From NCBI GenBank assembly GCA_964371095.1, contig CAYJMJ010000004.1:17651-81650 (forward strand): a stretch of DNA of 64,000 bases, given 5' to 3'. A model generated the notes under the pieces. The model made no database searches. It worked only from the letters and a program-made list of their open reading frames with translations, and was not told where the DNA came from. Source of the DNA: an uncultured Dehalococcoidia bacterium (GTDB lineage Bacteria; Chloroflexota; Dehalococcoidia; DSTF01; JACRBR01). Position numbers and translations under genes: made by a program. Positions 4,720 to 64,000 of the stretch are shown here, piece after piece (the first letter of the stretch is position 1; each line of letters begins with the position of its first letter).

Positions 4720-4750
4720 CCCCCCCCCCCCCCCCCGCGCCCCCCCCCCC
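4720..4750 (+). repeat. homopolymeric tract C17-GCG-C11 (encodes poly-Pro in every frame)
   Basis: Read directly from the sequence: 4720-4736 is 17 C, then GCG, then 4740-4750 is 11 C. An ATG-initiated frame starting at 4621 terminates at TGA 4756-4758; the LCP frame continues in frame 0. Confidence 0.9.
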
Positions 4751-4805
4751 GCCGCTGATCCTCGCGCCGCCGCGCCCCAAGCGCTCGCACTGGCTTCGCA
4801 ACATC

Positions 4806-5783
4806 GTGATGCTCGCGGCCCTCTACGTCGCGTTGGCCGTCGGCACGACGGTGCAGCCGCTGCCGATACCGTTCACGTCGGTCCACGCCTCGGTGCCGTT
4901 CCCGGGCGGCGCACCGGTGTTGTTCGGACTGCCGGACCGCCCGTTCACGGTGCTCGTCATCGGCCTGGACCGCCGCCCGTCCGAAAAGGGAGCGAGCCGT
5001 ACGGACACCGTGCTGCTCGTGCGCATCGACCCGGGCGCGCACAAGGCTGCGTTCCTCAGCATCCCGCGTGACTCGCTCATGGAGGTCCCGCAGGCCGGCG
5101 GCACCTACACGCAGGACCGCATCAACACCGCCTATGTCTACAACTGGTCATCGAAGGACGGCAGTGCGGCGCCGAAGGCCGTGGCGGCCACGATCGAGCA
5201 CAACCTGGGCATCAAGGTCGACCATTACATCACGTTCGATCAGCGCAGCGCCGAGGACTTGATCCAGGCCATGGGCGGCGTCACGATCGACAACCCGCGC
5301 GAATTCGGCCAGGAGGACTACTCCGACGACGACGTCCACGTCGTGCCGCAGCACTTCGCGAAGGGCAAGATCTCACTCGACGGCTACCAGGCCGTCGCCT
5401 ACGGCCGCATACGCGAAGGCTCCACCGATTTCGATCGCATCCAGCGGCAGCAGCGAGTCGGTTCGGCGCTCATTCATCAGGCATCGTCGCCGATGTCCGT
5501 CGTTCACCTGCCTGCGGCGTTCAACGCGTACCGGAAGACCATCAAGACCGACATGAGCCTGCGCCAGTCGGCGGGCGTGCTGTCGCTGCTCAAGGGCGTC
5601 GACGACGGCGACCTCAAGACGAAGTCGCTCGGCGACGCGGCGGTGTCGTGCAACTCCTGCACGGCGTCGATCCAGCTCCTCGACCCGGCCAGGGTGCAGG
5701 CGATCATCGCCGAAGCATTCGGCGACCCGGAGGCCGGCGCCCGCGCCGCGCAGCTTCTCGCCGCCGCGGGCGTCACGCCGTAA
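4806..5783 (+). CDS. LytR-CpsA-Psr (LCP) family cell-envelope phosphotransferase; N-terminus probably encoded from 4621 in another frame
   Basis: Transmembrane helix MLAALYVALAVG followed by an LCP domain (TVLVIGLDRRPSEKGASRTDTVLLVRIDP...FLSIPRDS...DRINTAY). The frame is open back to 4602 with no ATG. The 4621 ATG frame (MILAVMEDFEAYGQLRDRPRD...PPPP) would join it after a -1/+2 shift inside the poly-C tract. Confidence 0.8.
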   Translation: MMLAALYVALAVGTTVQPLPIPFTSVHASVPFPGGAPVLFGLPDRPFTVLVIGLDRRPSEKGASRTDTVLLVRIDPGAHKAAFLSIPRDSLMEVPQAGGTYTQDRINTAYVYNWSSKDGSAAPKAVAATIEHNLGIKVDHYITFDQRSAEDLIQAMGGVTIDNPREFGQEDYSDDDVHVVPQHFAKGKISLDGYQAVAYGRIREGSTDFDRIQRQQRVGSALIHQASSPMSVVHLPAAFNAYRKTIKTDMSLRQSAGVLSLLKGVDDGDLKTKSLGDAAVSCNSCTASIQLLDPARVQAIIAEAFGDPEAGARAAQLLAAAGVTP

Positions 5784-6935: not shown

Positions 6936-7088
6936 CGCGGTTCACCCCACTTGCCCCGTACCTGCGGCACCGCGGCATACGCCGGCATGCCTCACTCCGA
7001 GGTTACACGGTGCGCCCCGTGTCCGCACCGGGCGAACAAGAAGGGCAGCCTCGTGGCTGCCCGTTCGAGCTGCGGCTCGGCGAAGCGG

Positions 7089-17346: not shown

Positions 17347-17811
17347 TACGTGTTCCCCCGACATTCGTGACATATCGATGACAGCCCGCACGATCCTCAC
17401 GATCACCGTGCGCGACGGCGGGCCGGTCGTTACGGCGACGCCGCGGCGGCCGGCGGTCACCGCTCACGTCACGCTGGCCGGCCGGTGGCTGCGCATCGCA
17501 CTCTCCGGCGCCGGCGACGTTGAGCTGCGCATCGCCGGCGCGGACGACGTCGACGTGCGCGGCGGCTACCTCTACGCCGTGCCGGGAGACCCGTACGTAG
17601 TGCGCGCGCACGTCGCGGGGCGCCTCGCGGTCGCGGCGCGCCTGCGCCGCCGCTGACCCCGCCGAAGCTGCGTTACGAAGCGTTTACGGAGAGTTTCCCG
17701 CGCGGCGACGGCGCCATAACAACGCGCACACGGCACGCGGCGATAGTAGCAGCGTAGACGGTATCGCTCGCACCGGTGCGGGCGCCGCAACGCAGAGACA
17801 GAGAGGACGCC

Positions 17812-18303
17812 ATGCTCAAGAGAGCCTTCGTAGCAGCAGCATTCCTGGGAGCCGCGGCCTCGGCGTTCACCGCGTTCGCGCCGGCCGCCTCGGCCGCCAC
17901 GCCGCCGCCGGCCGGCGCCGCGCCGTCGGCCTTCGTCGCCGGGCGCAACGTGCTCACCGCGCACGGCTCGGGCATCGTCGCCGTCAAGGGGGCGATGGAC
18001 CTGAACGCCAGCGCCGCCGAGGGCGTGCTCCTCGTCAAGGATCCCACCGGCGACGCGCGCATCGACGTCGATGGCTATGGCGGCCAGGGCGAGTGGAACG
18101 GGGTCAAGGTGTACTGGGGCTTCCACGGCCACGCACACATCGTGGGCCGTGACGTCGGCGTGATGATCATCGGCCGCGACGTCGACCTCCGGGTCATCGG
18201 CCGGGGCTGGGCCTTCCTGAAGGGACACGGTTCGTACAGCGTCAACGGCGGGCCGCCGCAGCCCTGGACCGAAGAGGGCGCGCGGTTCAACGTCGCGCCG
18301 TAA
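17812..18303 (+). CDS. secreted hypothetical protein with signal peptide
   Basis: MLKRAFVAAAFLGAAASAFTAFAPAASA looks like a signal peptide, followed by a Gly/Asp-rich mature domain with an internal GRDVGVMIIGRDVDLRVIGRG repeat. Confidence 0.55.
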   Translation: MLKRAFVAAAFLGAAASAFTAFAPAASAATPPPAGAAPSAFVAGRNVLTAHGSGIVAVKGAMDLNASAAEGVLLVKDPTGDARIDVDGYGGQGEWNGVKVYWGFHGHAHIVGRDVGVMIIGRDVDLRVIGRGWAFLKGHGSYSVNGGPPQPWTEEGARFNVAP

Positions 18304-18326
18304 CCGTTGGGGGCGAGGTGCCGGCA

Positions 18327-18360
18327 GAGAGGGTCGCCTTCGGCGGCCCTCTCTGCGCGT
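18327..18360 (+). terminator. hairpin GCAGAGAGGG-N13-CCCTCTCTGC downstream of the secreted-protein gene
   Basis: Perfect 10-bp stem. It contains the GCAGAGA motif that recurs in the microsatellites at 36094 and 59900. Confidence 0.45.
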
Positions 18361-32827: not shown

Positions 32828-33709
32828 ATGACGCGGATCGCGGATCTCAACGGCAAGACGTGCGTCGTCACCGGCGCGAACAGCGGCATCGGCAAGGTCA
32901 CCGCCGCCGCGCTCGCATCGATGGGCGCGCACGTCGTGATGGTCTGCCGCGATCCCGCCCGCGGCGAGGCCGCTCGCGCCGAGATCGCGAAGCGCTCCGC
33001 CAACGAGCGCATCGATCTCTTGATCGCCGATATGGCCTCGCAGCGGCAGATCCGGCAGCTCGCCGCCGGCATCCGCACGCGGTATGACCGGCTCGACGTG
33101 CTCGTCAACAACGCCGGCGCGATGAACACCGCACGCACCCTCACCGAGGACGGCATCGAGACGACGTGGGCGGTCAATCACCTGGCGTACTTCCTGCTGA
33201 CCAACGAGCTGCTCGATGTGCTCAAGGCCAGCGGCCCCTCGCGCGTCGTCAGCGTCAGTTCGCGCGCGCACGTCGGCGCGCGCATCGACTTCGACGACGT
33301 GCAGGGCGAGCGGAAGTTCGCTGGCTATCGCATCTACGGCCAGTCGAAGCTCGCGAACGTCCTCTTCACGTACGAGCTGGCCCGTCGCCTCGAAGGCAGC
33401 CCGGTCACGGCGAACTGCCTGCACCCCGGCGTCGTCGCCACCGGTTTCGGCCACAACAACACCGATCTCTTCGGCCGGGCGTTCGGCACCGTGATGAGCG
33501 GGATTCGCCCGTTCCTGATGAGCCCCGAGCGCGGCGCGGAAACGTCGATTCACCTCGCGGCGTCGCCGGAGATCGAGGGTGTGTCCGGAAAGTACTTCTC
33601 GAGCAAGAAGCCCGTCCGCTCATCGCCGGAGACGTATGACGAGACGACCGCGCGCCGCCTCTGGCAGCTCAGCGAGGAGATGACGCAAATCCGCGTCGCG
33701 GCGGGCTGA
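32828..33709 (+). CDS. SDR-family oxidoreductase
   Basis: TGANSGIGK cofactor-binding motif, NNAG, and the YxxxK catalytic motif (YGQSK). Confidence 0.9.
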   Translation: MTRIADLNGKTCVVTGANSGIGKVTAAALASMGAHVVMVCRDPARGEAARAEIAKRSANERIDLLIADMASQRQIRQLAAGIRTRYDRLDVLVNNAGAMNTARTLTEDGIETTWAVNHLAYFLLTNELLDVLKASGPSRVVSVSSRAHVGARIDFDDVQGERKFAGYRIYGQSKLANVLFTYELARRLEGSPVTANCLHPGVVATGFGHNNTDLFGRAFGTVMSGIRPFLMSPERGAETSIHLAASPEIEGVSGKYFSSKKPVRSSPETYDETTARRLWQLSEEMTQIRVAAG

Positions 33710-33720
33710 GGAGTCGTCGC

Positions 33721-34614
33721 ATGACCTACTCGATCGTCGCGCGCGACGCAGCGACGGGCGCCCTCGGCGTCGCCGTGCAGTCGCACTACTTCTGCGTCGG
33801 CGCGAGCGTCCCCTGGGCCGAGGCCGGCGTCGGCGCGGTCGCGACGCAGGCGATGAGCGAGACCTCGTACGGCCCGCTCGGCCTCGACCTCATGCGCGGC
33901 GGCAAGACGGCGCCCGAGGCCCTGCGCGCGCTCGTCGCCGCGGACGTCGGCGCCGCGATCCGCCAGGTCGCGATGGTCGACGCTGTGGGCAACGCCGCCG
34001 CACACACCGGCGACCACTGCATCACCGAAGCCGGCCACCGCACCGCCGAAAACGTCTCGGTGCAGGCCAACATGATGGAGCGCGGTACCGTTCCTGACGC
34101 GATGCTCGCCGCGTACGGCGCCGCGACCGGCGACCTCACCGAACGGTTACTCGCCGCACTCGACGCCGCCGAGGCGGAAGGCGGCGACATCCGCGGACGC
34201 CAGTCCGCCGCCATCCTCGTCGTCCACGGCGCACGCGGTACGCCACCATGGACGGCACGCCATGTCGACCTCCGTGTCGAGGATCACCCGGCGCCGCTCG
34301 TCGAGCTGCGCCGCCTCGTCACGCTCCGGCGGGCCTACGACGCCTCCGACCGCGGGTTCGAGCGATTCCGATCGGGCGATATCGACGGCGGCATCGCCGA
34401 AATGGAGGCCGGACGCAACCTCGCGCCGGACAACGCCGAGATCGCGTTCTGGCAGGCGCTCGCGCTCGCCCGCCGTGACATCCCGGCCGCGCGTGCGCTG
34501 ATCGCGCAGGCCCGCGCCGCCGACCCCCGCTGGTCCGAGCTCCTCCGCCGTCTCCCCGCCGCCGGCCTCTTCCCGGAAAACGCCACGCTCATCGCGGAGC
34601 TGCTGCGGGAATAA
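33721..34614 (+). CDS. DUF1028-family (Ntn-hydrolase-like) protein with C-terminal helical repeat
   Basis: MTYSIVARDAATGALGVAVQSHYF N-terminus, characteristic of DUF1028. Confidence 0.75.
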   Translation: MTYSIVARDAATGALGVAVQSHYFCVGASVPWAEAGVGAVATQAMSETSYGPLGLDLMRGGKTAPEALRALVAADVGAAIRQVAMVDAVGNAAAHTGDHCITEAGHRTAENVSVQANMMERGTVPDAMLAAYGAATGDLTERLLAALDAAEAEGGDIRGRQSAAILVVHGARGTPPWTARHVDLRVEDHPAPLVELRRLVTLRRAYDASDRGFERFRSGDIDGGIAEMEAGRNLAPDNAEIAFWQALALARRDIPAARALIAQARAADPRWSELLRRLPAAGLFPENATLIAELLRE

Positions 34615-34699
34615 CGGAAGCTGGAGGCTAGAAACTGGAGGCTGGAGAGAGTTGTCCAATCGACGGCGGCGTGGTCGCCATCCAGCTTCCAGCCTCGCT

Positions 34700-34720
34700 C
34701 CGACCTCCGACCTCCGACCT
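34700..34720. repeat. heptamer microsatellite (CCGACCT)x3 directly after the stop codon of the minus-strand hydratase gene
   Basis: Read from the sequence. It is part of an imperfect inverted-repeat region (34617-34700) between two convergent genes. Confidence 0.8.
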
Positions 34721-35515
34721 CTACAAACCCGTAAACCGCGGCTCGCGCTTCTCGCGGAACGCGCGCACGCCCTCGCGCGAATCCTCCGTCGAGCCGGCGA
34801 GGCGGCGCATCGCTTCCCCCATGCGCAGCGCGTCGTCGAACGAGAGCGCCTGCGAGCGCACCGCCACTTCCTTCGTCGCCGCCATTGCTTGCGGTGCGTT
34901 CCGTGCGAGGCGGTCCGCCCATCGCATCGCCTCGGCGATGAGTTCGTCGTGCGGCACGACCCGGTTCACCAGCCCCATGTCATACGCCCGCGGCGCATCG
35001 ACGCGATCACCGACGAGCAGCAGCTCCAGCGCCGCGCCGAGCCCGATCACGCGCGGCGCGCGGATCGCCCCCGCGATCGTCGGCACGCCGATCTGCACCT
35101 CCGGAAACTGGAAGATCGCCCGCTCCGACGCGATCCGCAGGTCGCACGCCAGCGCCAGCGTCAGCCCTTCGCCGATGCAATAGCCGTTCACGGCCGCGAT
35201 CGTCGGCTTCCAGACGTCGAGCCCGCCCTGCAGGTCCCAGTCGAAGCGGGTCTCCCACAGGTGGCGCCCCGGGCCGTGCGGGTGCTGCCGAGTCTCGGCT
35301 TCCGCCTTCCCCCACGTCCGCACGTCGGCGCCCGCCGAGAAGGCTCGGTCGCCCGCGCCGGTGACGATCGCGACGGCGACCTCCGGATCGTCGCGAAACG
35401 CGCTCCATGCATCGTGCAGCTCGACGTGCATCGCGCGGTCGAACGTGTTGAGCGCCTCCGGGCGATCGAGCGTGATCAGCGCAACGCGACCCTGCGGCTC
35501 ATACCGAACAGCCAT
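34721..35515 (-). CDS. enoyl-CoA hydratase/isomerase family protein
   Basis: Crotonase fold (ITGAGDRAFSAGADV...GYCIGEGLTLALACD). Start at MAVRYEP, preceded by GGGAGGGA. Confidence 0.85.
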   Translation of the reverse strand: MAVRYEPQGRVALITLDRPEALNTFDRAMHVELHDAWSAFRDDPEVAVAIVTGAGDRAFSAGADVRTWGKAEAETRQHPHGPGRHLWETRFDWDLQGGLDVWKPTIAAVNGYCIGEGLTLALACDLRIASERAIFQFPEVQIGVPTIAGAIRAPRVIGLGAALELLLVGDRVDAPRAYDMGLVNRVVPHDELIAEAMRWADRLARNAPQAMAATKEVAVRSQALSFDDALRMGEAMRRLAGSTEDSREGVRAFREKREPRFTGL

Positions 35516-35600
35516 GACGTCCCTCCCGTTTCGATGAGAGATCTCCCAGACCGCTACGATAGCACGATGCCGCCGGCTGCATCGGCTACAATCGGCGCTG

Positions 35601-36038
35601 ATGTACGCGTTCGATGTCAGCGTGGAGATCGATGCGCCGCCGCAGCGCGTCTGGCGCGCGCTCTGCGATCCGGCCGAGGTCGTCCAATGGGACACCGGCG
35701 TCGCCGAGGCGATCGACGCGCCGCCCGATTATCCCCGGCCCGGCCAGCACGTGCGATGGCGTTACACAAATGGCCCGTTCCGCCTCCTCCACGACCGCCC
35801 GATCGACGTCGTCGAAAATCAGCGCCTGCGCGCGTCGTTGACGGTCGGCCCGGTGCGATTCGACGAGACGTACACGCTCGATCCGCACAACGCGGGCTGC
35901 CGCCTGACCGCGGCGATGCTCGTCCGCGTGCCGTTGCCCCTGCTCGGCCCGATCGTCGAGCGCTTCTACGCCGGACCGGCGGCCAGGTCCGCGGTGACCG
36001 CCTCCCTCGCCGCCATCAAGCGCCACTGCGAGCGCTAG
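35601..36038 (+). CDS. SRPBCC-family protein
   Basis: MYAFDVSVEIDAPPQRVWRALCDPAEVVQWD is the classic polyketide-cyclase/Aha1-like N-terminus. Confidence 0.75.
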   Translation: MYAFDVSVEIDAPPQRVWRALCDPAEVVQWDTGVAEAIDAPPDYPRPGQHVRWRYTNGPFRLLHDRPIDVVENQRLRASLTVGPVRFDETYTLDPHNAGCRLTAAMLVRVPLPLLGPIVERFYAGPAARSAVTASLAAIKRHCER

Positions 36039-36093
36039 CCACTCCCTAGCATCGCCGCGCGCGCTCGCGGCACGCCTTCGCTGTCCGCGGTTG

Positions 36094-36119
36094 CTCTCTG
36101 CTCTCTGCTCTCTGCTCTG
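36094..36119. repeat. heptamer microsatellite (TCTCTGC)x3-4 ending 1 nt before the stop codon of the minus-strand DSD1 gene
   Basis: Read from the sequence. A GC hairpin (gccgcg...cgcggc, 36046-36063) lies just upstream. Confidence 0.8.
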
Positions 36120-36120
36120 C

Positions 36121-37209
36121 CTACGCCCGCCGCTGCTCGGGATAACCCCGCGCCGCGATCGGCCACGCTCCGGCGACCTCGCCGCCCTCGATCGCGTACA
36201 TCACGTCGTGCAGGTTGATCGTCGGGTCGACGTGCGACGGCCACAGTTCGATGCGGTCACCGACGGCGAGCACAGCCTCGGCGGGCAGCGCGATCGTCGC
36301 GTGCTCGTCGCTCAGGAACAGCACCTTCGCTCCCTCGATCCCCTTCACCGCCGGGTTGCCGTGATCGACCGAACACGCCTTCAGCCCGCTGTCCGAGGCG
36401 CACTGCTCCGGGCGCGGGCGGCTCAACACCGTGCCCAGCACGCTGAACGCCTTCTCGAACGGCATGTCGAGTTGCGCGTACGCGGTGTCCATCAGCGCGT
36501 ACGAGCCTGCCTGGATCTCCGTGATGCCTTCCATCGTTCCCGTGATGTCGTACGTGCCGCTGCCTCCGCCGCTGACGATGTCGCAGCGCAGCCCCGCATC
36601 GCGCACCTGGCGCACTGTCGTGAGCAGCCGCTCCATCGCCTTCGCCGTCTTCTCCTCGCGCTCGGCGCGCGCGGCAATGCCGACGACGTGCCCCTCGTAT
36701 CCCATCAGCCCGCGCAGGATCACACCCTCGGTCGCATCGACGCGCTTCGCCAGCTCGACGGCGGGCTCGCCCGCCGCGATGCCGCACCGCGGCATGCCGA
36801 CGTTGACGTCGACGAGGACGCCGACTTCGACGCCCGCCAGGCGCGCGGCCAGCGCCAGGTCGTTCAGCCCGTACTCCGAGTCGACGGCGACGATGATGCT
36901 CGCCTGCGCCGCCAGCTTGGCCACGCGCGCGGCTTTGCCCGGCCCGACGACCTGGTTCGCGATCAGGATCTCATCCGTCAGCCGTTCGCGTACGACGACC
37001 TCCGCCTCGCCGACGGTGGCGCACGTCAGACCCGTGCAGGAGCCCGCCGCGATCTGCCGCCGCGCGATCTCCGGCGTCTTGTGCGCCTTGAAGTGCGGGC
37101 GCAGCTTGCACGGCCGCCCGGCGAAGTAGTCCGCCATGCGGCGAATATTCCGCTCCATCGCCGCCACGTCGACGACCAGCGCCGGCGTGGGAATCTCGTG
37201 CACCTTCAT
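36121..37209 (-). CDS. D-serine deaminase-like / D-threonine aldolase (alanine-racemase N-terminal domain family, DSD1)
   Basis: PLP-binding Lys region (HFKAHKTPEIARRQIAAG) and a C-terminal DSD1 domain. Start at MKVHEIP, preceded by AAGGAG. Confidence 0.85.
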   Translation of the reverse strand: MKVHEIPTPALVVDVAAMERNIRRMADYFAGRPCKLRPHFKAHKTPEIARRQIAAGSCTGLTCATVGEAEVVVRERLTDEILIANQVVGPGKAARVAKLAAQASIIVAVDSEYGLNDLALAARLAGVEVGVLVDVNVGMPRCGIAAGEPAVELAKRVDATEGVILRGLMGYEGHVVGIAARAEREEKTAKAMERLLTTVRQVRDAGLRCDIVSGGGSGTYDITGTMEGITEIQAGSYALMDTAYAQLDMPFEKAFSVLGTVLSRPRPEQCASDSGLKACSVDHGNPAVKGIEGAKVLFLSDEHATIALPAEAVLAVGDRIELWPSHVDPTINLHDVMYAIEGGEVAGAWPIAARGYPEQRRA

Positions 37210-37319
37210 GGCCTTGCTCCTTTCGGTCGTCCTGACCCGCTGCGCCGAATCTAGCACGAACGCCGCATACGCCCACGGCCGCGCTGGCCCGCACGGCCAT
37301 CGCTCGTTACCCTGCTCAC

Positions 37320-37898
37320 ATGACCGAGCAATCAGGACGGCGGCCCAGGCGCAGGCGCGGCGGACGCGGCGGAGCAAGCCGGCCGCGCGGCGAAGGCAGC
37401 CCCGGGCAGCCAGCGGCCAGCCCGGAGCAGCCGCCCCAGGCCGACGCGCGCGTGCCAAGGCAGGACACGCGTCGCGGCCGCGGCGGCGGCGGCGCTCCCG
37501 AGCGGCCCCGCACGCCCCCAGGACCACCAGGACCCGCGCCCGGCGGCCGCATCCAGCGCGCCCCCGCCGCGGGCGAGCGGCCGAAGCGCGAGCGCGCTCC
37601 GTCCGACGGCCGCTCGCGCGATCGCGGCCCGCAACGTGACCGCGATCGCGGCCCGCGCGTCTTCGAAGCGCCCGTACCTCAAGACGAGCGCTCCATCGAG
37701 CTTGGCGCCATGTTCAAGGAGGCGCAGACCGCGCTCCGCGACGCCCGCAAGGCGCTCGAGAAACGGAAGGCCGACTTCGACGACGAGCCGGAGTGGATGC
37801 TCGAGCAGTACCGCGCCGCCGAAAAGCGCTTCGAGGAGGTCTCCACCGAGTGGTCGGAGCACCTCGCGAAGACCGGCCGCAAGGTCGTCCGCCGCTAG
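37320..37898 (+). CDS. Arg/Gly/Pro-rich protein with structured C-terminal helical domain (hypothetical)
   Basis: The N-terminal 120 aa are low-complexity RGG/Pro-rich. The C-terminus (MFKEAQTALRDARKALEKRKADFDDEPEWMLEQYRAAEKRFEEVSTEWSEHLAKTGRK) looks like real protein. The true start could instead be the internal ATG near 37711. Confidence 0.45.
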   Translation: MTEQSGRRPRRRRGGRGGASRPRGEGSPGQPAASPEQPPQADARVPRQDTRRGRGGGGAPERPRTPPGPPGPAPGGRIQRAPAAGERPKRERAPSDGRSRDRGPQRDRDRGPRVFEAPVPQDERSIELGAMFKEAQTALRDARKALEKRKADFDDEPEWMLEQYRAAEKRFEEVSTEWSEHLAKTGRKVVRR

Positions 37899-42870: not shown

Positions 42871-42956
42871 GTCGACGCCGCGCTGATTGACAAGGGGGGC
42901 TCGTTCCGAGCCCCCCTTCGCCGTCTCTGGCGCACCCGGTCGATATACTCGCTGTC

Positions 42957-53347: not shown

Positions 53348-53434
53348 ACCGCCTGACCCGTCGCACACCTCGAGCGGCCAATGGAAAGGGCGGCCCGCGG
53401 GCCGCCCTTGTCGATCTCCGGTGTGCGCCCGCCC

Positions 53435-57093: not shown

Positions 57094-58221
57094 ATGACGA
57101 CTGAACGCAAGCAAGACTACTACGACCTGCTCGGCCTCCCGCGCGGCGCGAGCGCCGACGAGATCAAGAAGGCCTTCCGCCGCCTGGCGATGCAGTTCCA
57201 CCCGGACCGCAACCAGGCGCCCGAAGCCGAGGCCCGCTTCAAGGAGATCAACGAGGCGTACGAGGTCCTCTCCGACCCGGAGCGCCGCGCCATGTACGAC
57301 CGCTTCGGCCATGCCGCCACGCAGGGCGGCGCCGAGGGCTTCGCGCGCGGGTTCGAGGGCTTCGGCGGCCTCGGCGACATCTTCGATGCGTTCTTCGGCG
57401 GGGCGCAGGCGCGCGGCCACCGCGGCCCCGCGCGCGGCGCCGACATCCGCCGCGGCATCACGATCAGCTTCGAGGAAGCGGTCTTCGGCGCGGACAAGGA
57501 GATCGAGGTCCAGACCGCCGAGATCTGCGCCGTCTGCAATGGACTGCGCGCCGAGCCCGGCACGCAGCCCGAGCGCTGCACCCAGTGCAACGGCACCGGC
57601 GAGGTGCGCCGCGCCCAGCAGAGCATCTTCGGCCAGTTCGTCAACGTGGCCGCCTGCGATCGCTGCCGCGGCGAGGGCCGTATCGTCACCAACCCCTGCA
57701 AGCACTGCCGCGGCGCGGGCCGCGAGAAGCGCAAGCGCAAGCTGTCCGTGCACATCCCCGCCGGCGTCGACAACGGATCGCAGATGCGCCTCACCGGCGA
57801 GGGCGAGATCGGCACCCAGGGCGGCCCGCGCGGCAACCTCTACCTGCAGATCAGCGTCCGCCAGCACGACCTCTTCCAGCGCGACGACGACACGCTGCTG
57901 CTCGAGCTCGAGGTCAACTTCGCGCAGGTCGCGCTCGGCGACGAGATCGCCGTCCCGACGATCGACGGCACGGACCACGACCTCCGCATTCCCGCCGGCA
58001 CGCAGACCGGCGAGATGTTCGTCGTGCGCGGCAAGGGTGTACCGCACCTGCGCGGCGGCGGCCGCGGCGACATGGTTGTCCGCCTCAACGTCGTCACGCC
58101 GAAGCACCTGTCGAAAGAACAGAAGGAACTGCTCAAGCGCCTCGCCGACTCGATGGGTCCCGGCGGGAAGGCCGGCGACGACCACGGCCTCATGGGCAAG
58201 ATCAAGGGCAAGCTGGGGTAA
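57094..58221 (+). CDS. dnaJ: molecular chaperone DnaJ
   Basis: J domain (DYYDLLGL...HPDRN), a Gly/Phe region, four CxxCxGxG zinc-finger repeats and a C-terminal domain. No dnaK or grpE nearby. Confidence 0.9.
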   Translation: MTTERKQDYYDLLGLPRGASADEIKKAFRRLAMQFHPDRNQAPEAEARFKEINEAYEVLSDPERRAMYDRFGHAATQGGAEGFARGFEGFGGLGDIFDAFFGGAQARGHRGPARGADIRRGITISFEEAVFGADKEIEVQTAEICAVCNGLRAEPGTQPERCTQCNGTGEVRRAQQSIFGQFVNVAACDRCRGEGRIVTNPCKHCRGAGREKRKRKLSVHIPAGVDNGSQMRLTGEGEIGTQGGPRGNLYLQISVRQHDLFQRDDDTLLLELEVNFAQVALGDEIAVPTIDGTDHDLRIPAGTQTGEMFVVRGKGVPHLRGGGRGDMVVRLNVVTPKHLSKEQKELLKRLADSMGPGGKAGDDHGLMGKIKGKLG

Positions 58222-58224
58222 TTG

Positions 58225-59352
58225 CTAGGGAACCGGGACCACGTGTACGGGGCCCGGGCGTGACCGAAACCCATCCGGCATCACAAGCAGAAGCAGTGCC
58301 GCCAGCGCGGCGGTCGATGCGCCGAAGGCGAACGTCGCGGGCGGGCCGAACAGATCCCATAAACCGCCGCCAATCACGCTCGACAGCAGCAGCATGACGC
58401 CGACACATGCGTTGTACAGGCCCATCGCCGTGCCGCGGCGCTCCGCCGGCACGAGATCCGCCACGTACGCCTTGCCCACGCCCTCTGTGAACGCGATGTA
58501 CGCGCCGTAGATGATGAACAGCGGCCACACCGCCCACGCATCCGTCGCCAGCGCGAACCCGGCGTACACACCCGCGAAGATCGCGAAGCCGGCGACCAGC
58601 ACCGGCTTGCGGCCGATGCGATCGGAGCGGATGCCGGCGGGCAGCGACAGCGCGGCGTACGAGATGTTGTAGAGCACGTACGCGAGGACGATGGCCGTCG
58701 CGCCGAGGCCGAGGTTCTGCGACCGCAGCACGAGGAATGCGTCGCTCGAATTTCCAAACGCGAACAGCAACGTGACGCCGAGGAAGATCAGGAAGCGGCG
58801 ATCGTAGCCGCGCAGCGAAAATAGCGGCGGCAACGTGCCTTCGCGGGGCACGTGGCGGATCTCGCGCACGAAGAGCAGCACGAGAACGGAGATCAGCCCG
58901 GGGATGCCGGCAATGAGGAAGATCGGGCGGTAGTTGTCGTGGCCGAACCATGCCAACAACCCGAGCGCGGTGATCGGCCCGATGATCGCGCCCGAGGTGT
59001 CCATGGCGCGGTGCAGCCCGAAGGCGCGCCCGCGCGACGCCGCGTCCGTCGACTCGGCGATGAGCGCGTCGCGGGGCGCGGTGCGTATGCCCTTACCGCT
59101 GCGGTCGAGGAAACGGACGAACAACACCGCAGGCCAGTGGTACGCGAGCGCGAGCGCCGGCTTTGCGATGGCGGCGAGACCGTAGCCGGCGAACGTGAAC
59201 GGGACGCGGCGCCTGAGCCGGTCCGAGAACCAGCCGAACACGAGCTTGAGCAGGCTGGCCGTGCTTTCGGCGACGCCCTCGATGACGCCGACGGCGACGA
59301 CCGGCGCGCCGAGCGTGCTCGTCAGGAACAGCGGAACGAGCGGATACGCCAT
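58225..59352 (-). CDS. MFS transporter (N-terminus anomalous, see findings)
   Basis: MFS fold with motif A (GWFSDRLRRRVP). A conserved TM1 sequence (RNVWLLGVVSLFADISSE) is in frame upstream of the first ATG, with no canonical start codon before the stop at 59539-59541. Confidence 0.8.
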   Translation of the reverse strand: MAYPLVPLFLTSTLGAPVVAVGVIEGVAESTASLLKLVFGWFSDRLRRRVPFTFAGYGLAAIAKPALALAYHWPAVLFVRFLDRSGKGIRTAPRDALIAESTDAASRGRAFGLHRAMDTSGAIIGPITALGLLAWFGHDNYRPIFLIAGIPGLISVLVLLFVREIRHVPREGTLPPLFSLRGYDRRFLIFLGVTLLFAFGNSSDAFLVLRSQNLGLGATAIVLAYVLYNISYAALSLPAGIRSDRIGRKPVLVAGFAIFAGVYAGFALATDAWAVWPLFIIYGAYIAFTEGVGKAYVADLVPAERRGTAMGLYNACVGVMLLLSSVIGGGLWDLFGPPATFAFGASTAALAALLLLVMPDGFRSRPGPVHVVPVP

Positions 59353-59820
59353 CTCGCTGCTGATATCGGCGAACAGGCTGACGACGCCGAGGAGCCAGAC
59401 GTTGCGCGAGACGCCGCCGGCGCCCGGCTGCGTCTCGGTCGCTTCAGTGCCGGATTCGGTGGTCGACGTGGCGGCACTCCTCTCGTCAGGGGGCTCGTGC
59501 GTGCCGTCATTCTGGCGGCGCCAGCGGCCGGCCGCTAATTAACGCTCTCCAACCATTGGACCATCGCCGGCGCGACGTCGGACGAGACATCGTCGCCCGT
59601 GCCGCCGCTCGACCTGCGCTCGGCGCGGCGGCCGTGCTCGCCCGCGCCGGCGTGCCGGCCTGATGGATCGTCCCGGCCGTCGCCGCCTCCCTCCTCAGCT
59701 TGTCCCTCTGGCGCGCCGCCCCCACCCGCACCTGACCCCCGCAACCACACCTCCACGGCGCACCCTAACCAACGACGGTGAGCACCAAGTAGTCGACGGC
59801 GTTGCCCGATGCCCCGTGCG

Positions 59821-60034
59821 CCTTTGCTGTTTGCTGTCGGTCCCTGTGCTCCCTGCTCCCTGCGCCGTCCCTTTGCTGTTTGCTGCTTGCTGTTTGCTGT
59901 CGGCCCCTCTGCTCCCTGCTCTCTGCTCTCTGCGCCGCCCCTTTGCTGTCTGCCGTCTGCTGTCGGTCGTTCTGCCTCCTGCTCTCCGCCCTCCGCTCTC
60001 TGCCGGCTCTAACCTCTAACCTCTAACATCCAAC
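59821..60034. repeat. minisatellite: three imperfect 49-70 bp units (CCTTTGCTGTTTGCTGTCGG..CTCCCTGCTC(T/C)CTGCGCCG.C) followed by (TAACCTC)x3
   Basis: Read from the sequence. Units begin near 59821, 59870 and 59940, and are built from TTTGCTG and CTC(T/C)CTG sub-repeats. The array ends 30 nt upstream of the ilvD start. Confidence 0.85.
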
Positions 60035-60067
60035 CACGCTACCCTGTCCCCCACACGGAGGCACGCC

Positions 60068-61741: not shown

Positions 61742-61774
61742 GGGATCAACAGCGAATCCACACCCTTCGCGGAA

Positions 61775-62233
61775 TTACCCAGACGGGGGGCGCCACGGAA
61801 ACCTTCTGGCCTCGGTCTCGAGGTCATCTGCGAAACGCTTGACGTCTCCAGCAGCGAGCCGAAATTCCAGTGACTCGCCCTCAACTCGTTGGTCATAGTC
61901 CAGTGCCGGGCGACAAAACTCCAGACGGAATCGAGCAAAGAGAGAGATTGCGCCGTCGTCGCGGCGAGCAGAGAACGAAAGGTTCGGCTCGATAGCATCA
62001 AACTCGCGAGCCTGACCGCCTTCCGCGACTTGCCTCAGCCAGTTGACCAGATCCGTGATCTCGTACGTCAGTAGCGCCGCTTCGCGAGCACGCCACCGCC
62101 GATCGCCGTAGGTTACAGCCAACTCGATCACCAGCCAGTTTGCGTCCGATTCGTCCTTCTCTCCGGCTGGGAACTGATACCCCGCGATGTCAAGCTGCAG
62201 CGAATGCTCTGGGTCGGGTTCGATACGCGCCAT
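61775..62233 (-). CDS. hypothetical protein (152 aa) in a low-GC islet; immunity-protein-like
   Basis: Clean ORF in sequence that is visibly lower in GC (roughly mid-50s %, against about 70% for the window). No family assigned. Confidence 0.5.
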   Translation of the reverse strand: MARIEPDPEHSLQLDIAGYQFPAGEKDESDANWLVIELAVTYGDRRWRAREAALLTYEITDLVNWLRQVAEGGQAREFDAIEPNLSFSARRDDGAISLFARFRLEFCRPALDYDQRVEGESLEFRLAAGDVKRFADDLETEARRFPWRPPSG

Positions 62234-62379
62234 GGCTGTGCACCTATCGGATCAGGGGGAGTCCCGCGTCTCTGGCCAATTGCAGCAACTGCACGGGCGT
62301 GACTATTGCCGTCACTTCAAGGCTTGCAGGTCTACAGATCGCGATCGTACGTCACTAGGAAGTCGGCGCCCGCGTGTTT

Positions 62380-62408
62380 CCGACCTCCGCCCTCCGACCT
62401 CTCAGCCA
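62380..62408. repeat. heptamer microsatellite CCGACCT-CCGCCCT-CCGACCT ending 4 nt before the stop codon of the minus-strand beta-propeller gene
   Basis: Read from the sequence; same motif as 34700-34720. Confidence 0.75.
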
Positions 62409-62412
62409 CCCA

Positions 62413-64000
62413 CTACGGCGGGAACGCCGCCTGCAGCAGCGTGTCCCCGTTCAGCACGTACAGCACGCCTTTCCCCTCGTCCACCGCCACCGCCCGCAGG
62501 TCCGTGAACGACGAGCTGACGATCTGACGCAGGAACGCGCCCTCCGCCGACGCGACGATGATCCGCTTGTTGCCCCGGTCCGCTACCACCAGCCGGTTCG
62601 ACCCCGGCAGCACCGAAAGCGACGCCGGCGACACCAGCCCCGTGTCGATGCCCGCCAGCGGAAACGGCGCCTCCGTCTTGCCGATGAACCGCCGGATGCC
62701 CGCCTTCGCGTCGAGCACGTAGACGTCTTGCCCCACCGCCAGCTCGGTCGCGTCGGTCAGCGTCGCGCCGTCGAGCAGCCCCGTTCGCTCGCTGTCGTAC
62801 CCGCTCTGTCCGGGCAGATAGCGCCACACCTGGTTCGACTTCACGTCGAGCACATACAGGTTGCCGCCCGATCCCGCGATCGCGGCGATCGAGCCGAGAC
62901 TGTCGGAGCCGCGAACCGTTACCGGCAGCGCGCCGCTGTCGGGAAAGTACGCGAACGACTGCCGCTTGTCGTCCACGATCGTCAGGCTCTTCGTCTCCTC
63001 CGACCAGGCGATCTGCATCGGCCGCGACGCCGTCATGAATCCCGCCGGCTCGCCTTCGCGGAACACGGATTCGGGCGCCTGTCCGCCCGCGAGCGCCACG
63101 CGCAGCACGCGCTTTCCCTTCGCATCGAGGAAGTACGCGCTGCTCCCGCCGATCACTGCGCTCGTCAGCGAAAGCGAACCCGTCGCCTGCTGCTGCAGGT
63201 CGGCCACCGTCGTGAAGTCCTTGATCTCGTACACCGCATCGAGCACGGCCGTCGCCGCGGCCACGTCCGATGTCAGGCCGACCACGTCCGCGTTGTCCTT
63301 GTGGATCTTCGCCGCGTCCACCAGCTTCGCGCGCGCGTCGCCGAGGAGTTGCCGCTTCGCGGCCGAGTCGCCCGTCGCCTGCGCCCGCGCGTTCGCCTCG
63401 CGCGCGGCCGCCACGAGCTTGGTGAACTTGTCCTCGCGGCTCTGCTGCACCGAGCCCGGCAGTTGCCAGTACGCCAGCCCGCCGAGCAGCGCCAGCGCGA
63501 TGACCGCGAACACGACGAGCTTGGGGACCTGGAACTGCGGCAGCGCCGCGATCCCGGTGCTGCGCCGATACCGCGGCGCGGCCGAGTCGCCGCGCAGGCG
63601 CACGTTTGTCGCGCGCGACGGCGACGTCGCGTCCGTGATCTCCCGCACCTGCTCTTCGATCGGACGTGGCGGCAGCGGCATGTCGCCGATGACGCCTGCC
63701 GCCAGCGACGCCTCGGCCGGCTCCGGCCCGCCGCTCGCAGGCGCCGCGACGAGCAGTCCTTCGGCGGCCGCCGCGTCGTCGGCCCGTGCCTCCGGCGGCT
63801 GTTCGACCGGCGCGCCGTTGCGCGTCAGGAATTCGGGCGGCTGCTCGGGCTCCGCCTCGAAGCACGACAGCAGCACGAGCGCCATGTTCGGCCGGTCGCG
63901 GCAGAGCAGGTACAGCTCCGGCAGTACCTCGTCGGATCCGCGCGACAGCACGCGCTCGATCTGTGCCTCCGGCAAGATCTCCGCGAGTTGCGTCGACGCA
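62413..64000 (-). CDS. membrane protein with extracytoplasmic NHL/YVTN-like beta-propeller repeats (5' end beyond window)
   Basis: Transmembrane helix LVVFAVIALALLGGLAYW, then repeated ...NLYVLD, ...DVYVLD and ...VLYVLN blades. The frame is still open at the window edge. Confidence 0.6.
   Translation of the reverse strand, partial: ASTQLAEILPEAQIERVLSRGSDEVLPELYLLCRDRPNMALVLLSCFEAEPEQPPEFLTRNGAPVEQPPEARADDAAAAEGLLVAAPASGGPEPAEASLAAGVIGDMPLPPRPIEEQVREITDATSPSRATNVRLRGDSAAPRYRRSTGIAALPQFQVPKLVVFAVIALALLGGLAYWQLPGSVQQSREDKFTKLVAAAREANARAQATGDSAAKRQLLGDARAKLVDAAKIHKDNADVVGLTSDVAAATAVLDAVYEIKDFTTVADLQQQATGSLSLTSAVIGGSSAYFLDAKGKRVLRVALAGGQAPESVFREGEPAGFMTASRPMQIAWSEETKSLTIVDDKRQSFAYFPDSGALPVTVRGSDSLGSIAAIAGSGGNLYVLDVKSNQVWRYLPGQSGYDSERTGLLDGATLTDATELAVGQDVYVLDAKAGIRRFIGKTEAPFPLAGIDTGLVSPASLSVLPGSNRLVVADRGNKRIIVASAEGAFLRQIVSSSFTDLRAVAVDEGKGVLYVLNGDTLLQAAFPP

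What the first reader, a model, noticed from the sequence alone, without database searches (positions are those of the whole stretch)
34617..34721. Heptamer microsatellites placed exactly at the stop codons of three minus-strand genes
(CCGACCT)x3 at 34700-34720 ends 1 nt before the enoyl-CoA hydratase stop. (TCTCTGC)x3-4 at 36094-36119 ends 1 nt before the DSD1 stop. CCGACCT-CCGCCCT-CCGACCT at 62380-62408 ends 4 nt before the beta-propeller gene stop.

On the mRNA these read as (AGGUCGG)n or (GCAGAGA)n starting right after the stop codon. The GCAGAGA motif also forms the hairpin at 18327-18360 after another gene, and it recurs inside the ilvD-upstream minisatellite. At 34617-34700 the repeats are part of an imperfect inverted-repeat structure between convergent genes.

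This looks like a genome-specific 3'-UTR or terminator-associated repeat class, with slippage potential.
Basis: seen in the sequence. Interest (0 to 1): 0.5.

Follow-up and report, generated by a model that had tools for sequence, protein, structure and literature searches.

The report
Heptamer tandem repeats abutting gene ends
These are real 7-base tandem repeats sitting flush against stop codons in an uncultured Chloroflexota genome, but they belong to a repeat class already described in other bacteria and evolve like fast-turnover filler DNA, with no evidence here for a new terminator.

Summary
The repeats exist and are not chance. (CCGACCT)x3 at 34700-34720 and (TCTCTGC)x3.7 at 36092-36120 directly abut the TAG stops of two minus-strand genes. 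The third array (62380-62400) lies 12 nt from the real stop (62413-15), not 1-4 nt.

Period-7 arrays occur only in non-coding DNA of the window. Their purine-rich strand always reads away from the nearest ORF.

- **Not genome-specific.** Related Chloroflexota MAGs share the same heptamer vocabulary.
- **Not confined to 3' ends.** The largest array (about 210 nt) sits upstream of ilvD, where a gene has been lost.
- **Not terminators by the tests run.** There is no U-tract terminator, and only one of the three loci folds better than shuffles.

Comparative data:
- A syntenic relative has only 6- and 8-nt spacers between the same stop codons.
- A closer relative has two degenerate units.
- Ten co-specific assemblies are identical at both arrays.
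- One strain carries +2 units in the ilvD-upstream array.

This matches the known intergenic heptanucleotide SSR class: Mrazek 2007, cyanobacterial STRR, and Xanthomonas/Nostoc G-rich heptamers with the same stop-codon polarity. Verdict: a new member of a known, mechanistically unexplained kind.

The parts
34700..34720 (-). (AGGTCGG)x3 perfect heptamer array, read on the minus strand. It starts immediately after the TAG stop (34721-34723) of the enoyl-CoA hydratase (ECH_1) gene 34721-35515.
34679..34699 (-). Three degenerate units in the same 7-nt register (AGCGAGG CTGGAAG CTGGATG). They continue the array away from the stop and form the right arm of the inverted repeat.
   Evidence: register counted from the sequence
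34616..34651 (+). Imperfect heptamer array GGAAGCT GGAGGCT AGAAACT GGAGGCT GGAGAGA(G). It starts 1 nt after the TAA stop (34612-34614) of the convergent DUF1028 gene 33721-34614 and forms the left arm of the inverted repeat.
   Evidence: (TRF 34616-34647, period 7, 4.6 copies)
34616..34696 (.). Imperfect inverted repeat (long hairpin) formed by the two opposed arrays between convergent genes.
   Evidence: arms 10-16 nt, 81-100% complementary; MFE -57.5 / -49.4 kcal/mol, z -2.6 / -2.0
36092..36120 (-). (AGAGCAG)-type array, TGCTCTC x3.9 on the plus strand. It abuts the TAG stop (36121-36123) of the D-serine-dehydratase-like gene 36121-37209. The convergent SRPBCC/polyketide-cyclase gene ends at 36038.
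   Evidence: no structure beyond shuffles (z +0.7)
62380..62400 (-). AGGTCGG AGGGCGG AGGTCGG array, 12 nt downstream of the TAG stop (62413-62415) of the NHL-repeat (beta-propeller) gene. It is preceded by the leader GGTGGCTGAG, which is also found at two array loci of a related MAG.
62358..62366 (+). Single inverted unit GGAAGTCGG that pairs with the distal end of the 62380 array (9-bp stem).
   Evidence: local stem in the MFE and centroid structures; whole region z -0.14
59824..60005 (-). Composite heptamer minisatellite of about 26 units in one 7-nt register (TTTGCTG, CTCCCTG, CTCTCTG and variants on the plus strand), with a 63-70-nt higher-order period. It is purine-rich on the minus strand and lies upstream of ilvD, in the place of a mostly deleted DLH/abhydrolase gene.
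60007..60034 (-). (CTCTAAC)x3 + ATCCAAC array, 33 nt upstream of the ilvD start (60068) and directly upstream of a conserved 35-nt leader. It varies in copy number between strains (+2 units in L226).
18324..18358 (+). 15-bp hairpin GCAGAGAGGGTCGCC / GGCGGCCCTCTCTGC after gene 17776-18303. It contains one CAGAGAG heptamer per arm. Its relation to the arrays is uncertain.

Best explanation
These are intergenic heptanucleotide tandem repeats: 'long simple sequence repeats', like the cyanobacterial STRR and the Xanthomonas/Nostoc G-rich heptamers. The host is an uncultured Chloroflexota lineage.

Shown:
- They are confined to non-coding DNA.
- They use a small lineage-typical vocabulary of units: AGGTCGG, AGAGCAG, CAGCAAA, GTTAGAG.
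- They gain, lose and homogenise units between close relatives.
- They are placed with a polarity: the purine/G-rich strand reads away from the nearest ORF. [quoted passage not shown]

Inferred:
- Arrays arise and grow by slipped-strand mispairing or unequal exchange in dispensable spacer DNA.
- They grow until they meet sequence under purifying selection (the stop codon). That would be why they sit flush with it, and why tiny ancestral spacers between convergent genes became 82-106 nt.
- Two opposed arrays between convergent genes incidentally create a long hairpin.
- They are mainly a mutational by-product rather than dedicated terminators.

The reason for the 7-nt unit and for the recurrence of the same units is not explained, here or in the literature.
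For: Class features:
- Period 7 is the only enriched period, and all arrays are intergenic.
- The nearest ORF is on the 5' side of the purine-rich strand in 5/5 window arrays and 4/5 arrays of the relative L151.
- In 120 loci from other genomes the split is 77 vs 42 (p 0.0017), or 50 vs 20 counting one array per locus.
- Arrays lie within 20 nt of a stop in 33/66 cases when the stop is on the coding-strand side, against 14/68 on the opposite side.
- The same polarity, stop-codon overlap and inverted pairs were published for GGGAATC/GGGGAYT (PMC4692102).
- Heptamer over-representation in bacteria is attributed to Mrazek 2007 in PMC4679880 and PMC4692102.

Turnover:
- The fully syntenic relative L136 (ECH 88% aa) has 6-nt and 8-nt spacers between the very same stop codons.
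- L134 (96% aa) has two degenerate units, AGGCCGG ACGTTGG.
- Upstream of ilvD there are about 30 units in the window, about 5 in L151 and none in L149.
- The expanded array occupies the place of a DLH gene, of which only a 34-residue relic remains.
- Orthologous arrays in L151 and L152 carry different homogenised units, GCTGATT vs GCTGTTT.
- One strain has +2 units.

Against a specific function:
- No terminator and no Rfam family were found.
- Two of the three arrays are unstructured.
- Units are very diverse: 86 types among 106 independent arrays.
- AGGTCGG is not exceptional among same-composition heptamers: 17 viral-contig loci, against 2 and 53 for two controls.
Against: - The same few heptamers recur at non-orthologous sites in this genome and its relatives. 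Examples are AGGTCGG at 34700, 62380, L111 and L122, and AGAGCAG at 36092, 59916 and L111. Slippage on random local seeds does not predict this.
- Two non-orthologous loci of one MAG share an 11-nt leader plus the array, GGTGGCTGAG(AGGTCGG)3AA. That hints at copying rather than independent birth.
- The array after the NHL gene has kept 3 units since the window lineage and L151 diverged (ilvD 94% aa).
- The three short arrays showed no indel variation: 10 assemblies for the two stop-codon arrays, and 2 other contigs, L001 and L226, for the third. So they are not hypermutable at 3-4 copies.
- Polarity towards stops is orientation-specific, which a purely neutral model explains only by adding an unproven polar growth step.
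- My gene calls in foreign loci are crude (longest ORF plus GC3 rule), so the distance statistics carry noise.
Confidence: 0.55

Rival explanations
1. The arrays are selected 3'-end RNA/DNA elements. The purine-rich, C-poor RNA immediately after the stop, together with a C-rich array met by any transcript coming the other way, would form a stabilising or terminating hairpin when paired. When unpaired, the C-rich side would offer a Rho-loading (rut-like) tract. That tract would stop convergent or antisense transcription before it enters the gene.
For: - Stop-adjacency is orientation-specific (33/66 vs 14/68; 46 vs 25 ORF ends).
- Neighbouring inverted arrays prefer the purine-then-pyrimidine order, 14 vs 4.
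- The 34616-34720 hairpin folds better than shuffles on both strands.
- The NHL-gene array is conserved in copy number between two species.
- AGGTCGG units contain GGAGG, which matches the organism's own Shine-Dalgarno sequence seen before ilvD.
Against: - The arrays are absent from the same stop codons in syntenic relatives, which have 6-8-nt spacers.
- No U-tract terminators were found.
- Two of the three arrays have no structure.
- Unit sequences are not conserved.
- The same repeats occur upstream of starts.
- Cyanobacteria, which are rich in heptamer arrays, lack Rho (my own knowledge, not tested here).
- The genome has ordinary GC-rich hairpins after other genes.
Confidence: 0.2
2. The arrays are actively dispersed or actively synthesised. 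They could be a tiny mobile module, or units added by a templated enzymatic process at breaks. Alternatively they are multimeric binding sites for a lineage-specific protein. Either would explain why the same heptamers appear at many unrelated sites.
For: - A small unit vocabulary recurs within the window and in related MAGs at non-orthologous sites.
- The leader GGTGGCTGAG plus (AGGTCGG)3 is shared at non-orthologous loci of one MAG.
- Arrays sit at breakpoints of structural variation. The L134/window homology ends inside the degenerate units, next to a 600-nt indel. The NHL array borders a variable islet.
- In viral contigs, some contigs carry one heptamer at many sites.
Against: - Apart from one 11-nt leader, the flanks show no terminal repeats, target duplications or shared sequence.
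- No transposase or reverse transcriptase was noticed next to the arrays in the loci examined, though this was not searched for systematically.
- At least four unrelated unit families coexist in 64 kb, which a single template or a single binding protein does not explain.
- The 7-nt spacing does not match helical phasing for cooperative DNA binding (inference).
Confidence: 0.15
3. It is a chance coincidence or an assembly artefact.
For: - Only three to five loci are involved.
- One of the three claimed stop-codon contacts was based on the wrong reading frame.
- Short-read contigs break inside the large minisatellite.
Against: - Both stop-codon spacers are identical in 10 independent assemblies.
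- An orthologous array is present in an independently assembled MAG from a different project.
- The pattern is expected 0.03 times and observed 3 times.
- Period-7 specificity and intergenic restriction hold across the window.
Confidence: 0.03

Closest known systems
G-rich heptamer repeats GGGAATC (Xanthomonas) and GGGGA(C/T)T (Nostoc PCC 7120), Rehm et al. 2015 (PMC4692102)
   Same: - 7-nt tandem units at many intergenic sites.
[quoted passage not shown] - Inverted pairs can form stem-loops.
- Length and sequence vary between close species at conserved positions.
- No function has been found.
   Different: - The units here have only GG runs (AGGTCGG) or none (AGAGCAG, CAGCAAA), so three-tetrad G-quadruplexes are not possible.
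- The host is a Chloroflexota MAG.
- Several unrelated unit families coexist.
- The largest array lies between divergent genes, a position reported as under-represented there.
Long simple sequence repeats with 5-11-nt units, heptanucleotides dominant (Mrazek, Guo & Shah 2007, as summarised in PMC4679880 and PMC4692102)
   Same: - Heptanucleotide tandem repeats are over-represented relative to other unit lengths.
- They are excluded from coding DNA.
- Their phylogenetic distribution is scattered.
- The proposed origin is polymerase slippage.
   Different: That survey was statistical and predates these lineages. It did not report stop-codon polarity. The original paper could not be read here.
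Cyanobacterial STRR (short tandemly repeated repetitive) heptamers, Mazel et al. 1990 (cited in PMC4692102)
   Same: - Genome-typical heptamer units are dispersed at many intergenic loci.
- TTGGTCA-type arrays (what I recall as STRR2) occur next to AGGTCGG arrays in some of the fetched loci, such as L006.
   Different: - The unit sequences and the phylum differ.
- The STRR unit sequences are recalled from memory, not checked against a paper.
TAACTGA direct repeats of marine Beggiatoaceae, some cyanobacteria and Bacteroidetes (MacGregor 2015, PMC4679880)
   Same: - One heptamer is repeated at more than 100 intergenic sites.
- It is shared across distant phyla with no evident transfer mechanism.
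- The function is unknown.
   Different: - Those repeats lie mostly a few nt upstream of start codons on the coding strand, and a role in translation was proposed.
- Here the clearest cases are downstream of stops, and the upstream ones are pyrimidine-rich on the coding strand.
REP/BIME extragenic palindromes
   Same: - They are located after stop codons and between convergent genes.
- The paired-array locus at 34616-34720 forms a long hairpin in transcripts of both genes.
   Different: - REPs are 20-40-nt imperfect palindromic units mobilised by RAYT transposases.
- Here the hairpin is a by-product of two opposed tandem arrays, and two of the three loci have no palindrome.
Phase-variable contingency-locus SSRs, for example the 7-bp repeats upstream of hmw1A/hmw2A in Haemophilus influenzae (PMC8262952, PMC12721329)
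   Same: - Tandem heptamers occur in a 5' region (the ilvD-upstream array).
- Copy number differs between strains.
   Different: - The stop-codon arrays cannot switch any reading frame or promoter.
- The neighbouring genes are housekeeping or metabolic, not surface antigens.
- There was no variation in 10 assemblies at the two stop-codon arrays.

Membership tests
Intergenic heptanucleotide long SSRs (Mrazek LSSR / STRR-like) | Head-to-tail tandem copies of a 7-nt unit, at least 3 copies | tested here: met
   TRF: 34698-34721 (3.4 copies, 100%), 36092-36118 (3.9 copies, 100%), 60007-60035 (4.1 copies), 62379-62401 (3.3 copies, 87%).
Intergenic heptanucleotide long SSRs (Mrazek LSSR / STRR-like) | Period 7 over-represented relative to other unit lengths | tested here: met
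   In the window there are 5 exact period-7 runs, against 0-2 for each other period from 4 to 12 once the poly-C tract is set aside. This is one 64-kb window only, not a whole genome.
Intergenic heptanucleotide long SSRs (Mrazek LSSR / STRR-like) | Restricted to non-coding DNA | tested here: met
   All arrays lie in the ~11% of the window that is non-coding. Genes were confirmed by the called genes of co-specific contigs.
Intergenic heptanucleotide long SSRs (Mrazek LSSR / STRR-like) | The same unit types are dispersed at several loci of a genome | tested here: met
   AGGTCGG occurs at 34700 and 62380. AGAGCAG/CAGAGAG occurs at 36092 and 59916. The same families occur in the related MAG loci L111, L122, L151 and L152.
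Intergenic heptanucleotide long SSRs (Mrazek LSSR / STRR-like) | Unit number and sequence change between close relatives | tested here: met
   Within one population the three short arrays were invariant.
G-rich heptamer class of Rehm et al. 2015 | G-rich strand on the coding strand within 50 bp downstream of the stop, or on the non-coding strand upstream of the start; nearest ORF on the 5' side | tested here: met
   5/5 window arrays and 4/5 arrays in L151. In 120 foreign loci the split is 77 vs 42, and 33/66 vs 14/68 within 20 nt of stops.
G-rich heptamer class of Rehm et al. 2015 | Units carry G3-G4 tracts able to form G-quadruplexes, with a preference for four units | tested here: not met
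   The units AGGTCGG, AGAGCAG, CAGCAAA and GTTAGAG have at most GG. The arrays have 3-4 units, but no G3 tracts.
Intrinsic (Rho-independent) terminator | GC-rich stem-loop followed by a U tract, at the 3' end of a transcript | tested here: not met
   0 terminator-like sites in 33500-37500. The 36.1-kb and 62.4-kb arrays fold no better than shuffles. Transcript 3' ends cannot be tested with these tools.
REP/BIME (REPIN) elements | Conserved 20-40-nt imperfect palindrome unit, often in inverted doublets, with a RAYT transposase in the genome | tested here: not met
   The repeats are direct 7-nt tandems. An inverted arrangement is seen at one locus only. The presence of a RAYT gene in the genome cannot be tested from a 64-kb window.
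Phase-variable contingency SSR | The repeat lies inside an ORF or between promoter elements, so that unit changes switch expression, and copy number is polymorphic within populations | tested here: inconclusive
   The stop-codon arrays lie outside ORFs and promoters and were invariant in 10 assemblies. The ilvD-upstream array is polymorphic (+2 units), but it lies upstream of a conserved leader and the promoter position is unknown.
Rfam RNA families | Match to a curated covariance model at gathering score | tested here: not met
   0 matches in the whole window.

The most novel reading that the evidence does not exclude
Heptamer arrays may not be passive slippage products. They could be laid down directionally, from an ORF boundary outwards, by a dedicated process. 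Candidates are templated unit addition or copying of a small leader-plus-array module such as GGTGGCTGAG(AGGTCGG)3. Such a process would create new intergenic DNA de novo between abutting convergent genes, and the resulting DNA could then be co-opted as bidirectional hairpins or anti-antisense tracts. This would explain three things together: the 7-nt unit, the recurrence of the same units in many phyla, and the polarity.
Probability: 0.1. Interest if true: 0.7.

Novelty: new member of a known kind. Interest (0 to 1): 0.3.

Why it matters
It matters modestly.

- The finding extends a poorly studied but widespread repeat class to soil and groundwater Chloroflexota.
- It independently replicates, with a different unit and in many phyla, the odd polarity reported in 2015 for Xanthomonas and Nostoc: the G/purine-rich strand starts at the stop codon.
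- The comparative series is a clean natural example of how bacterial intergenic DNA can be created and remodelled. Spacers of 6-8 nt in one relative correspond to 82-106 nt of heptamers here, and a gene has been replaced by a 210-nt minisatellite.
- The open questions are long-standing: why 7 nt, why the same units recur, and why the polarity exists. Nearly complete related long-read contigs now make them testable genome-wide.
- For annotation, the practical message is that these arrays should not be called terminators or regulatory RNAs without 3'-end data.

Tried and rejected
- **Known RNA genes.** An Rfam scan and a tRNA scan of the window found nothing.
- **Terminators and promoters.** The consensus scan around the arrays found nothing.
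- **AGGTCGG as a special, conserved cross-phylum motif (SD-like GGAGG).**
  - Viral-contig scans gave 17 loci for (AGGTCGG)3. Two same-composition control heptamers gave 2 and 53.
  - Independent arrays in the fetched loci use 86 different units.
  - The idea is rejected as unsupported.
- **Array orientation set by replication strand (GC skew).**
  - The first result looked strong: 77/105.
  - After masking 500 nt around every array it fell to 55/89, or 48/68 for |skew| > 0.02.
  - It was absent for non-ascertained arrays: 30/58.
  - Part of the effect is expected from base composition alone.
  - It is kept only as a weak correlation. The window itself is consistent with it: skew is -0.076 and all C-rich arrays are on the plus strand.
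- **General purine richness of array units.** The value was 69%, against about 66% expected from choosing the richer strand. This is not meaningful.
- **Literature.**
  - A search for the unit sequences returned only primer matches.
  - Mrazek 2007 (PMC1895974) is not held, so it is cited second-hand.
- **MITE-like shared flanks.** None were found except one 11-nt leader.
- Orthologous loci therefore came from the metagenome scan and from exact-protein look-ups.
Full report
**What is in the sequence**

The window is 69% G+C. It comes from a metagenomic population that recurs in more than 20 ENA assemblies.
- (CCGACCT)x3 occupies 34700-34720. It is followed with no gap by cta (34721-23), the TAG stop of a minus-strand ECH_1 enoyl-CoA hydratase gene.
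- TCTCTGC x3 plus a partial unit occupies 36095-36120. TRF reports 36092-36118 with 3.9 copies at 100% match. This array abuts the TAG stop (36121-23) of an Ala_racemase_N/D-ser_dehydrat gene.
- The third array, CCGACCT-CCGCCCT-CCGACCT, is at 62380-62400.
  - The frame with GC3 0.92 ends at TAG 62413-15.
  - Its C-terminus AAFPP* is conserved in three orthologues.
  - The gap is therefore 12 nt. The protein carries NHL repeats.

**More than chance**

- Exact period-7 runs are found five times and only in non-coding DNA. Other periods from 4 to 12 give none to two once a poly-C tract is set aside.
- The 21-nt pattern is expected 0.03 times and found three times.

- The convergent DUF1028 gene (stop TAA 34612-14) is followed, on its own sense strand, by GGAAGCT GGAGGCT AGAAACT GGAGGCT GGAGAGA (34616-34651).
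- The ECH array continues with degenerate units AGCGAGG CTGGAAG CTGGATG.
- The 106-nt spacer is therefore two opposed purine-rich-first arrays around a 28-nt core. This is what produces the inverted repeat. The hairpin is moderately better than shuffles (z -2.6 and -2.0).
- The other two arrays have no such structure (z +0.7 and -0.1). The exception is a 9-bp stem between the 62380 array and one inverted unit at 62358-66.
- There are no consensus terminators and no Rfam hits.
- Upstream of ilvD, about 26 heptamers in one register are followed by (CTCTAAC)x3 (59824-60034). Together they form a 210-nt minisatellite with a 63-70-nt higher-order period.
- That minisatellite lies in a 5' region, so the class is not specific to 3' ends.
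- In all five window arrays the nearest ORF lies on the 5' side of the purine-rich strand.

**Not genome-specific**

- One scan of 185,579 species-representative genomes for CCGACCTCCGNCCTCCGACCT stopped at its 120-locus limit.
- Hits fell in Verrucomicrobiota, Planctomycetota, Lentisphaerota, Bacteroidota, Acidobacteriota, Gemmatimonadota, Desulfobacterota, Chloroflexota, Wenzhouxiangella and some actinobacteria.
- In those loci AGGTCGG is mixed with one-step variants (AGGTCAG, AGATCGG, AAGTCGG, AGGGCGG) and with unrelated heptamers. Arrays often occur as inverted pairs that would form long hairpins.
- AGGTCGG itself is not special.
  - Arrays more than 200 nt away from the ascertained ones use 86 unit types among 106 arrays.
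  - In IMG/VR, (AGGTCGG)3 gives 17 loci. Two same-composition controls give 2 and 53.

**Placement rules in other genomes**

I used a crude ORF caller: longest ORFs, with a GC3 rule for GC-rich loci.
- Purine-biased arrays lie closer to the ORF on their 5' side than to the one on their 3' side in 77 vs 42 cases (p 0.0017). Counting one array per locus gives 50 vs 20.
- When the 5' neighbour is the stop of a same-strand gene, 33 of 66 arrays start within 20 nt of it. When the 3' neighbour is the stop of a converging gene, only 14 of 68 do.
- A gene-model-free count gives 46 vs 25 ORF ends (at least 100 codons) within 30 nt. Random positions score 7.4%.
- Adjacent inverted arrays prefer the purine-then-pyrimidine order, 14 vs 4.
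- The same rule was published for GGGAATC in Xanthomonas and GGGGAYT in Nostoc. [quoted passage not shown] No function was found (PMC4692102).
- Heptamer over-representation among bacterial SSRs, and the polymerase-slippage idea, go back to Mrazek et al. 2007 as summarised in PMC4679880 and PMC4692102.

**Who carries it, and how it evolves**

The best named ilvD homologues are Dehalococcoidia/Chloroflexota MAGs at 94% and 89% identity. One 94% homologue lies on the 1.05-Mb contig of MAG MFD05942.bin.2.242. That MAG had already been hit twice by the repeat scan (L111, L122).

*Within the population*
- Ten assemblies at 99.6-99.8% identity have both stop-codon spacers identical to the window.
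- The 62380 array is also identical in L001 and L226.

*Between species, at the stop-codon spacers*
- L136 (ECH 88% aa) keeps the order DSD1-like, SRPBCC, ECH, DUF1028. The same stop codons are separated by only GCGAGA (6 nt) and CCCGTCGG (8 nt).
- L134 (96% aa) has TAG AGGCCGG ACGTTGG AGGCGAGGCTGGAAGC. That is two degenerate units, and homology to the window ends next to a 600-nt indel.

*Between species, at the other arrays*
- L151 has the orthologous (CCGACCT)x3 8 nt after the NHL stop. L149 and L152 have none.
- Upstream of ilvD the proximal 35-nt leader is conserved. The heptamer tract is about 30 units in the window, about 5 in L151, and absent from L149.
- In the window the tract fills the place of a DLH/abhydrolase gene, of which only a 34-residue relic remains.
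- Orthologous arrays in L151 and L152 carry different homogenised units, GCTGATT vs GCTGTTT.

*Between strains*
- One 99.1%-identical strain has two extra CTCCAAC units before ilvD.
- Short-read contigs repeatedly break inside this minisatellite.

**Interpretation**

- Identity with the known class of intergenic heptanucleotide SSRs is well supported.
- The turnover pattern points to arrays that arise and grow in dispensable DNA and are stopped by selection at the ORF boundary. The evidence is tiny ancestral spacers, decay and re-homogenisation of units, and expansion into a dead gene. Hairpins would then be a side effect of two opposed arrays.
- I put this by-product reading at about 0.55.
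- Three things remain unexplained:
  - the recurrence of the same few units at unrelated sites in this lineage;
  - the shared leader GGTGGCTGAG(AGGTCGG)3 at non-orthologous loci of one MAG;
  - the orientation-specific contact with stops.
- These keep two rivals alive: selected 3'-end or anti-antisense elements (0.2), and active dispersal or protein binding (0.15).
- A link between array orientation and GC skew looked strong at first (77/105). It weakened with stricter masking (55/89, or 48/68 for |skew| > 0.02) and is partly compositional. In the window and its relatives all arrays do follow the local skew.

**Verdict**

It is not genome-specific, not restricted to 3' ends, and shows no terminator evidence.
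- It is a new member of a known kind and of moderate-to-low interest.

Noticed in passing
window 4720-4755: There is a long interrupted poly-C tract (C17, then GCG, then C11). It lies just upstream of, or in the N-terminal part of, a LytR_cpsA_psr gene (4806-5783). It could encode a proline run, or be a homopolymer prone to length change or assembly error.
   Followed up: no
window 59538-59639: A relic of the C-terminal about 34 residues of a DLH/abhydrolase gene survives here. The gene is intact between the MFS gene and ilvD in relatives L149, L151 and L152. The rest of it is replaced by non-coding DNA and the heptamer minisatellite.
   Followed up: partly
window 61742-62412: There is a variable islet between ilvD and the NHL gene. 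The window and L226 carry a WapI-like immunity gene with low GC3 (0.65). L225 carries a different gene, L151 carries DUF2442/DUF4160 genes, and L152 carries an N6_N4 methyltransferase. The (CCGACCT)3 array sits at the conserved edge of this islet.
   Followed up: partly
window 1-64000: GC skew is uniformly negative on the plus strand: -0.076 overall, and about -0.15 at third codon positions after correcting for gene strand. This holds even though most genes (35 of 57) are on the plus strand.
   Followed up: partly
window 58160-58286: SPAdes scaffolds from two other samples have 100-N gaps here, inside the DnaJ-like gene and next to a short AAGGGCAAGATC repeat. Several contigs also end near 37471, at a (GCG)7 tract.
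   Followed up: no
L136 13-84: A related Chloroflexota metagenome contig carries a perfect (AGAACAA)x10 array at its end. Relatives therefore have long arrays built from other units.
   Followed up: no
L122 262-294: (CCGACCT)x3 lies directly in front of the conserved ILGIETSCDET N-terminus of a TsaD-like gene, inside the longest ORF. Gene callers may wrongly translate such arrays as N-terminal extensions.
   Followed up: no
window 53385-53415, 42890-42925, 7035-7070: Ordinary GC-rich stem-loops without clear U tracts follow several other genes. An example is AAGGGCGGCCCGCGGGCCGCCCTT between the convergent methyltransferase and Peptidase_S26 genes. In L151 the same spacer holds a heptamer array instead.
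   Followed up: partly
L172-L224 (IMG/VR), e.g. IMGVR_UViG_3300032160_000019: The control heptamer (AGTGGCG)3 occurs at eight or more separate sites of a single 40-kb viral contig. Dispersed single-unit heptamer arrays therefore also exist in phage-like DNA.
   Followed up: no
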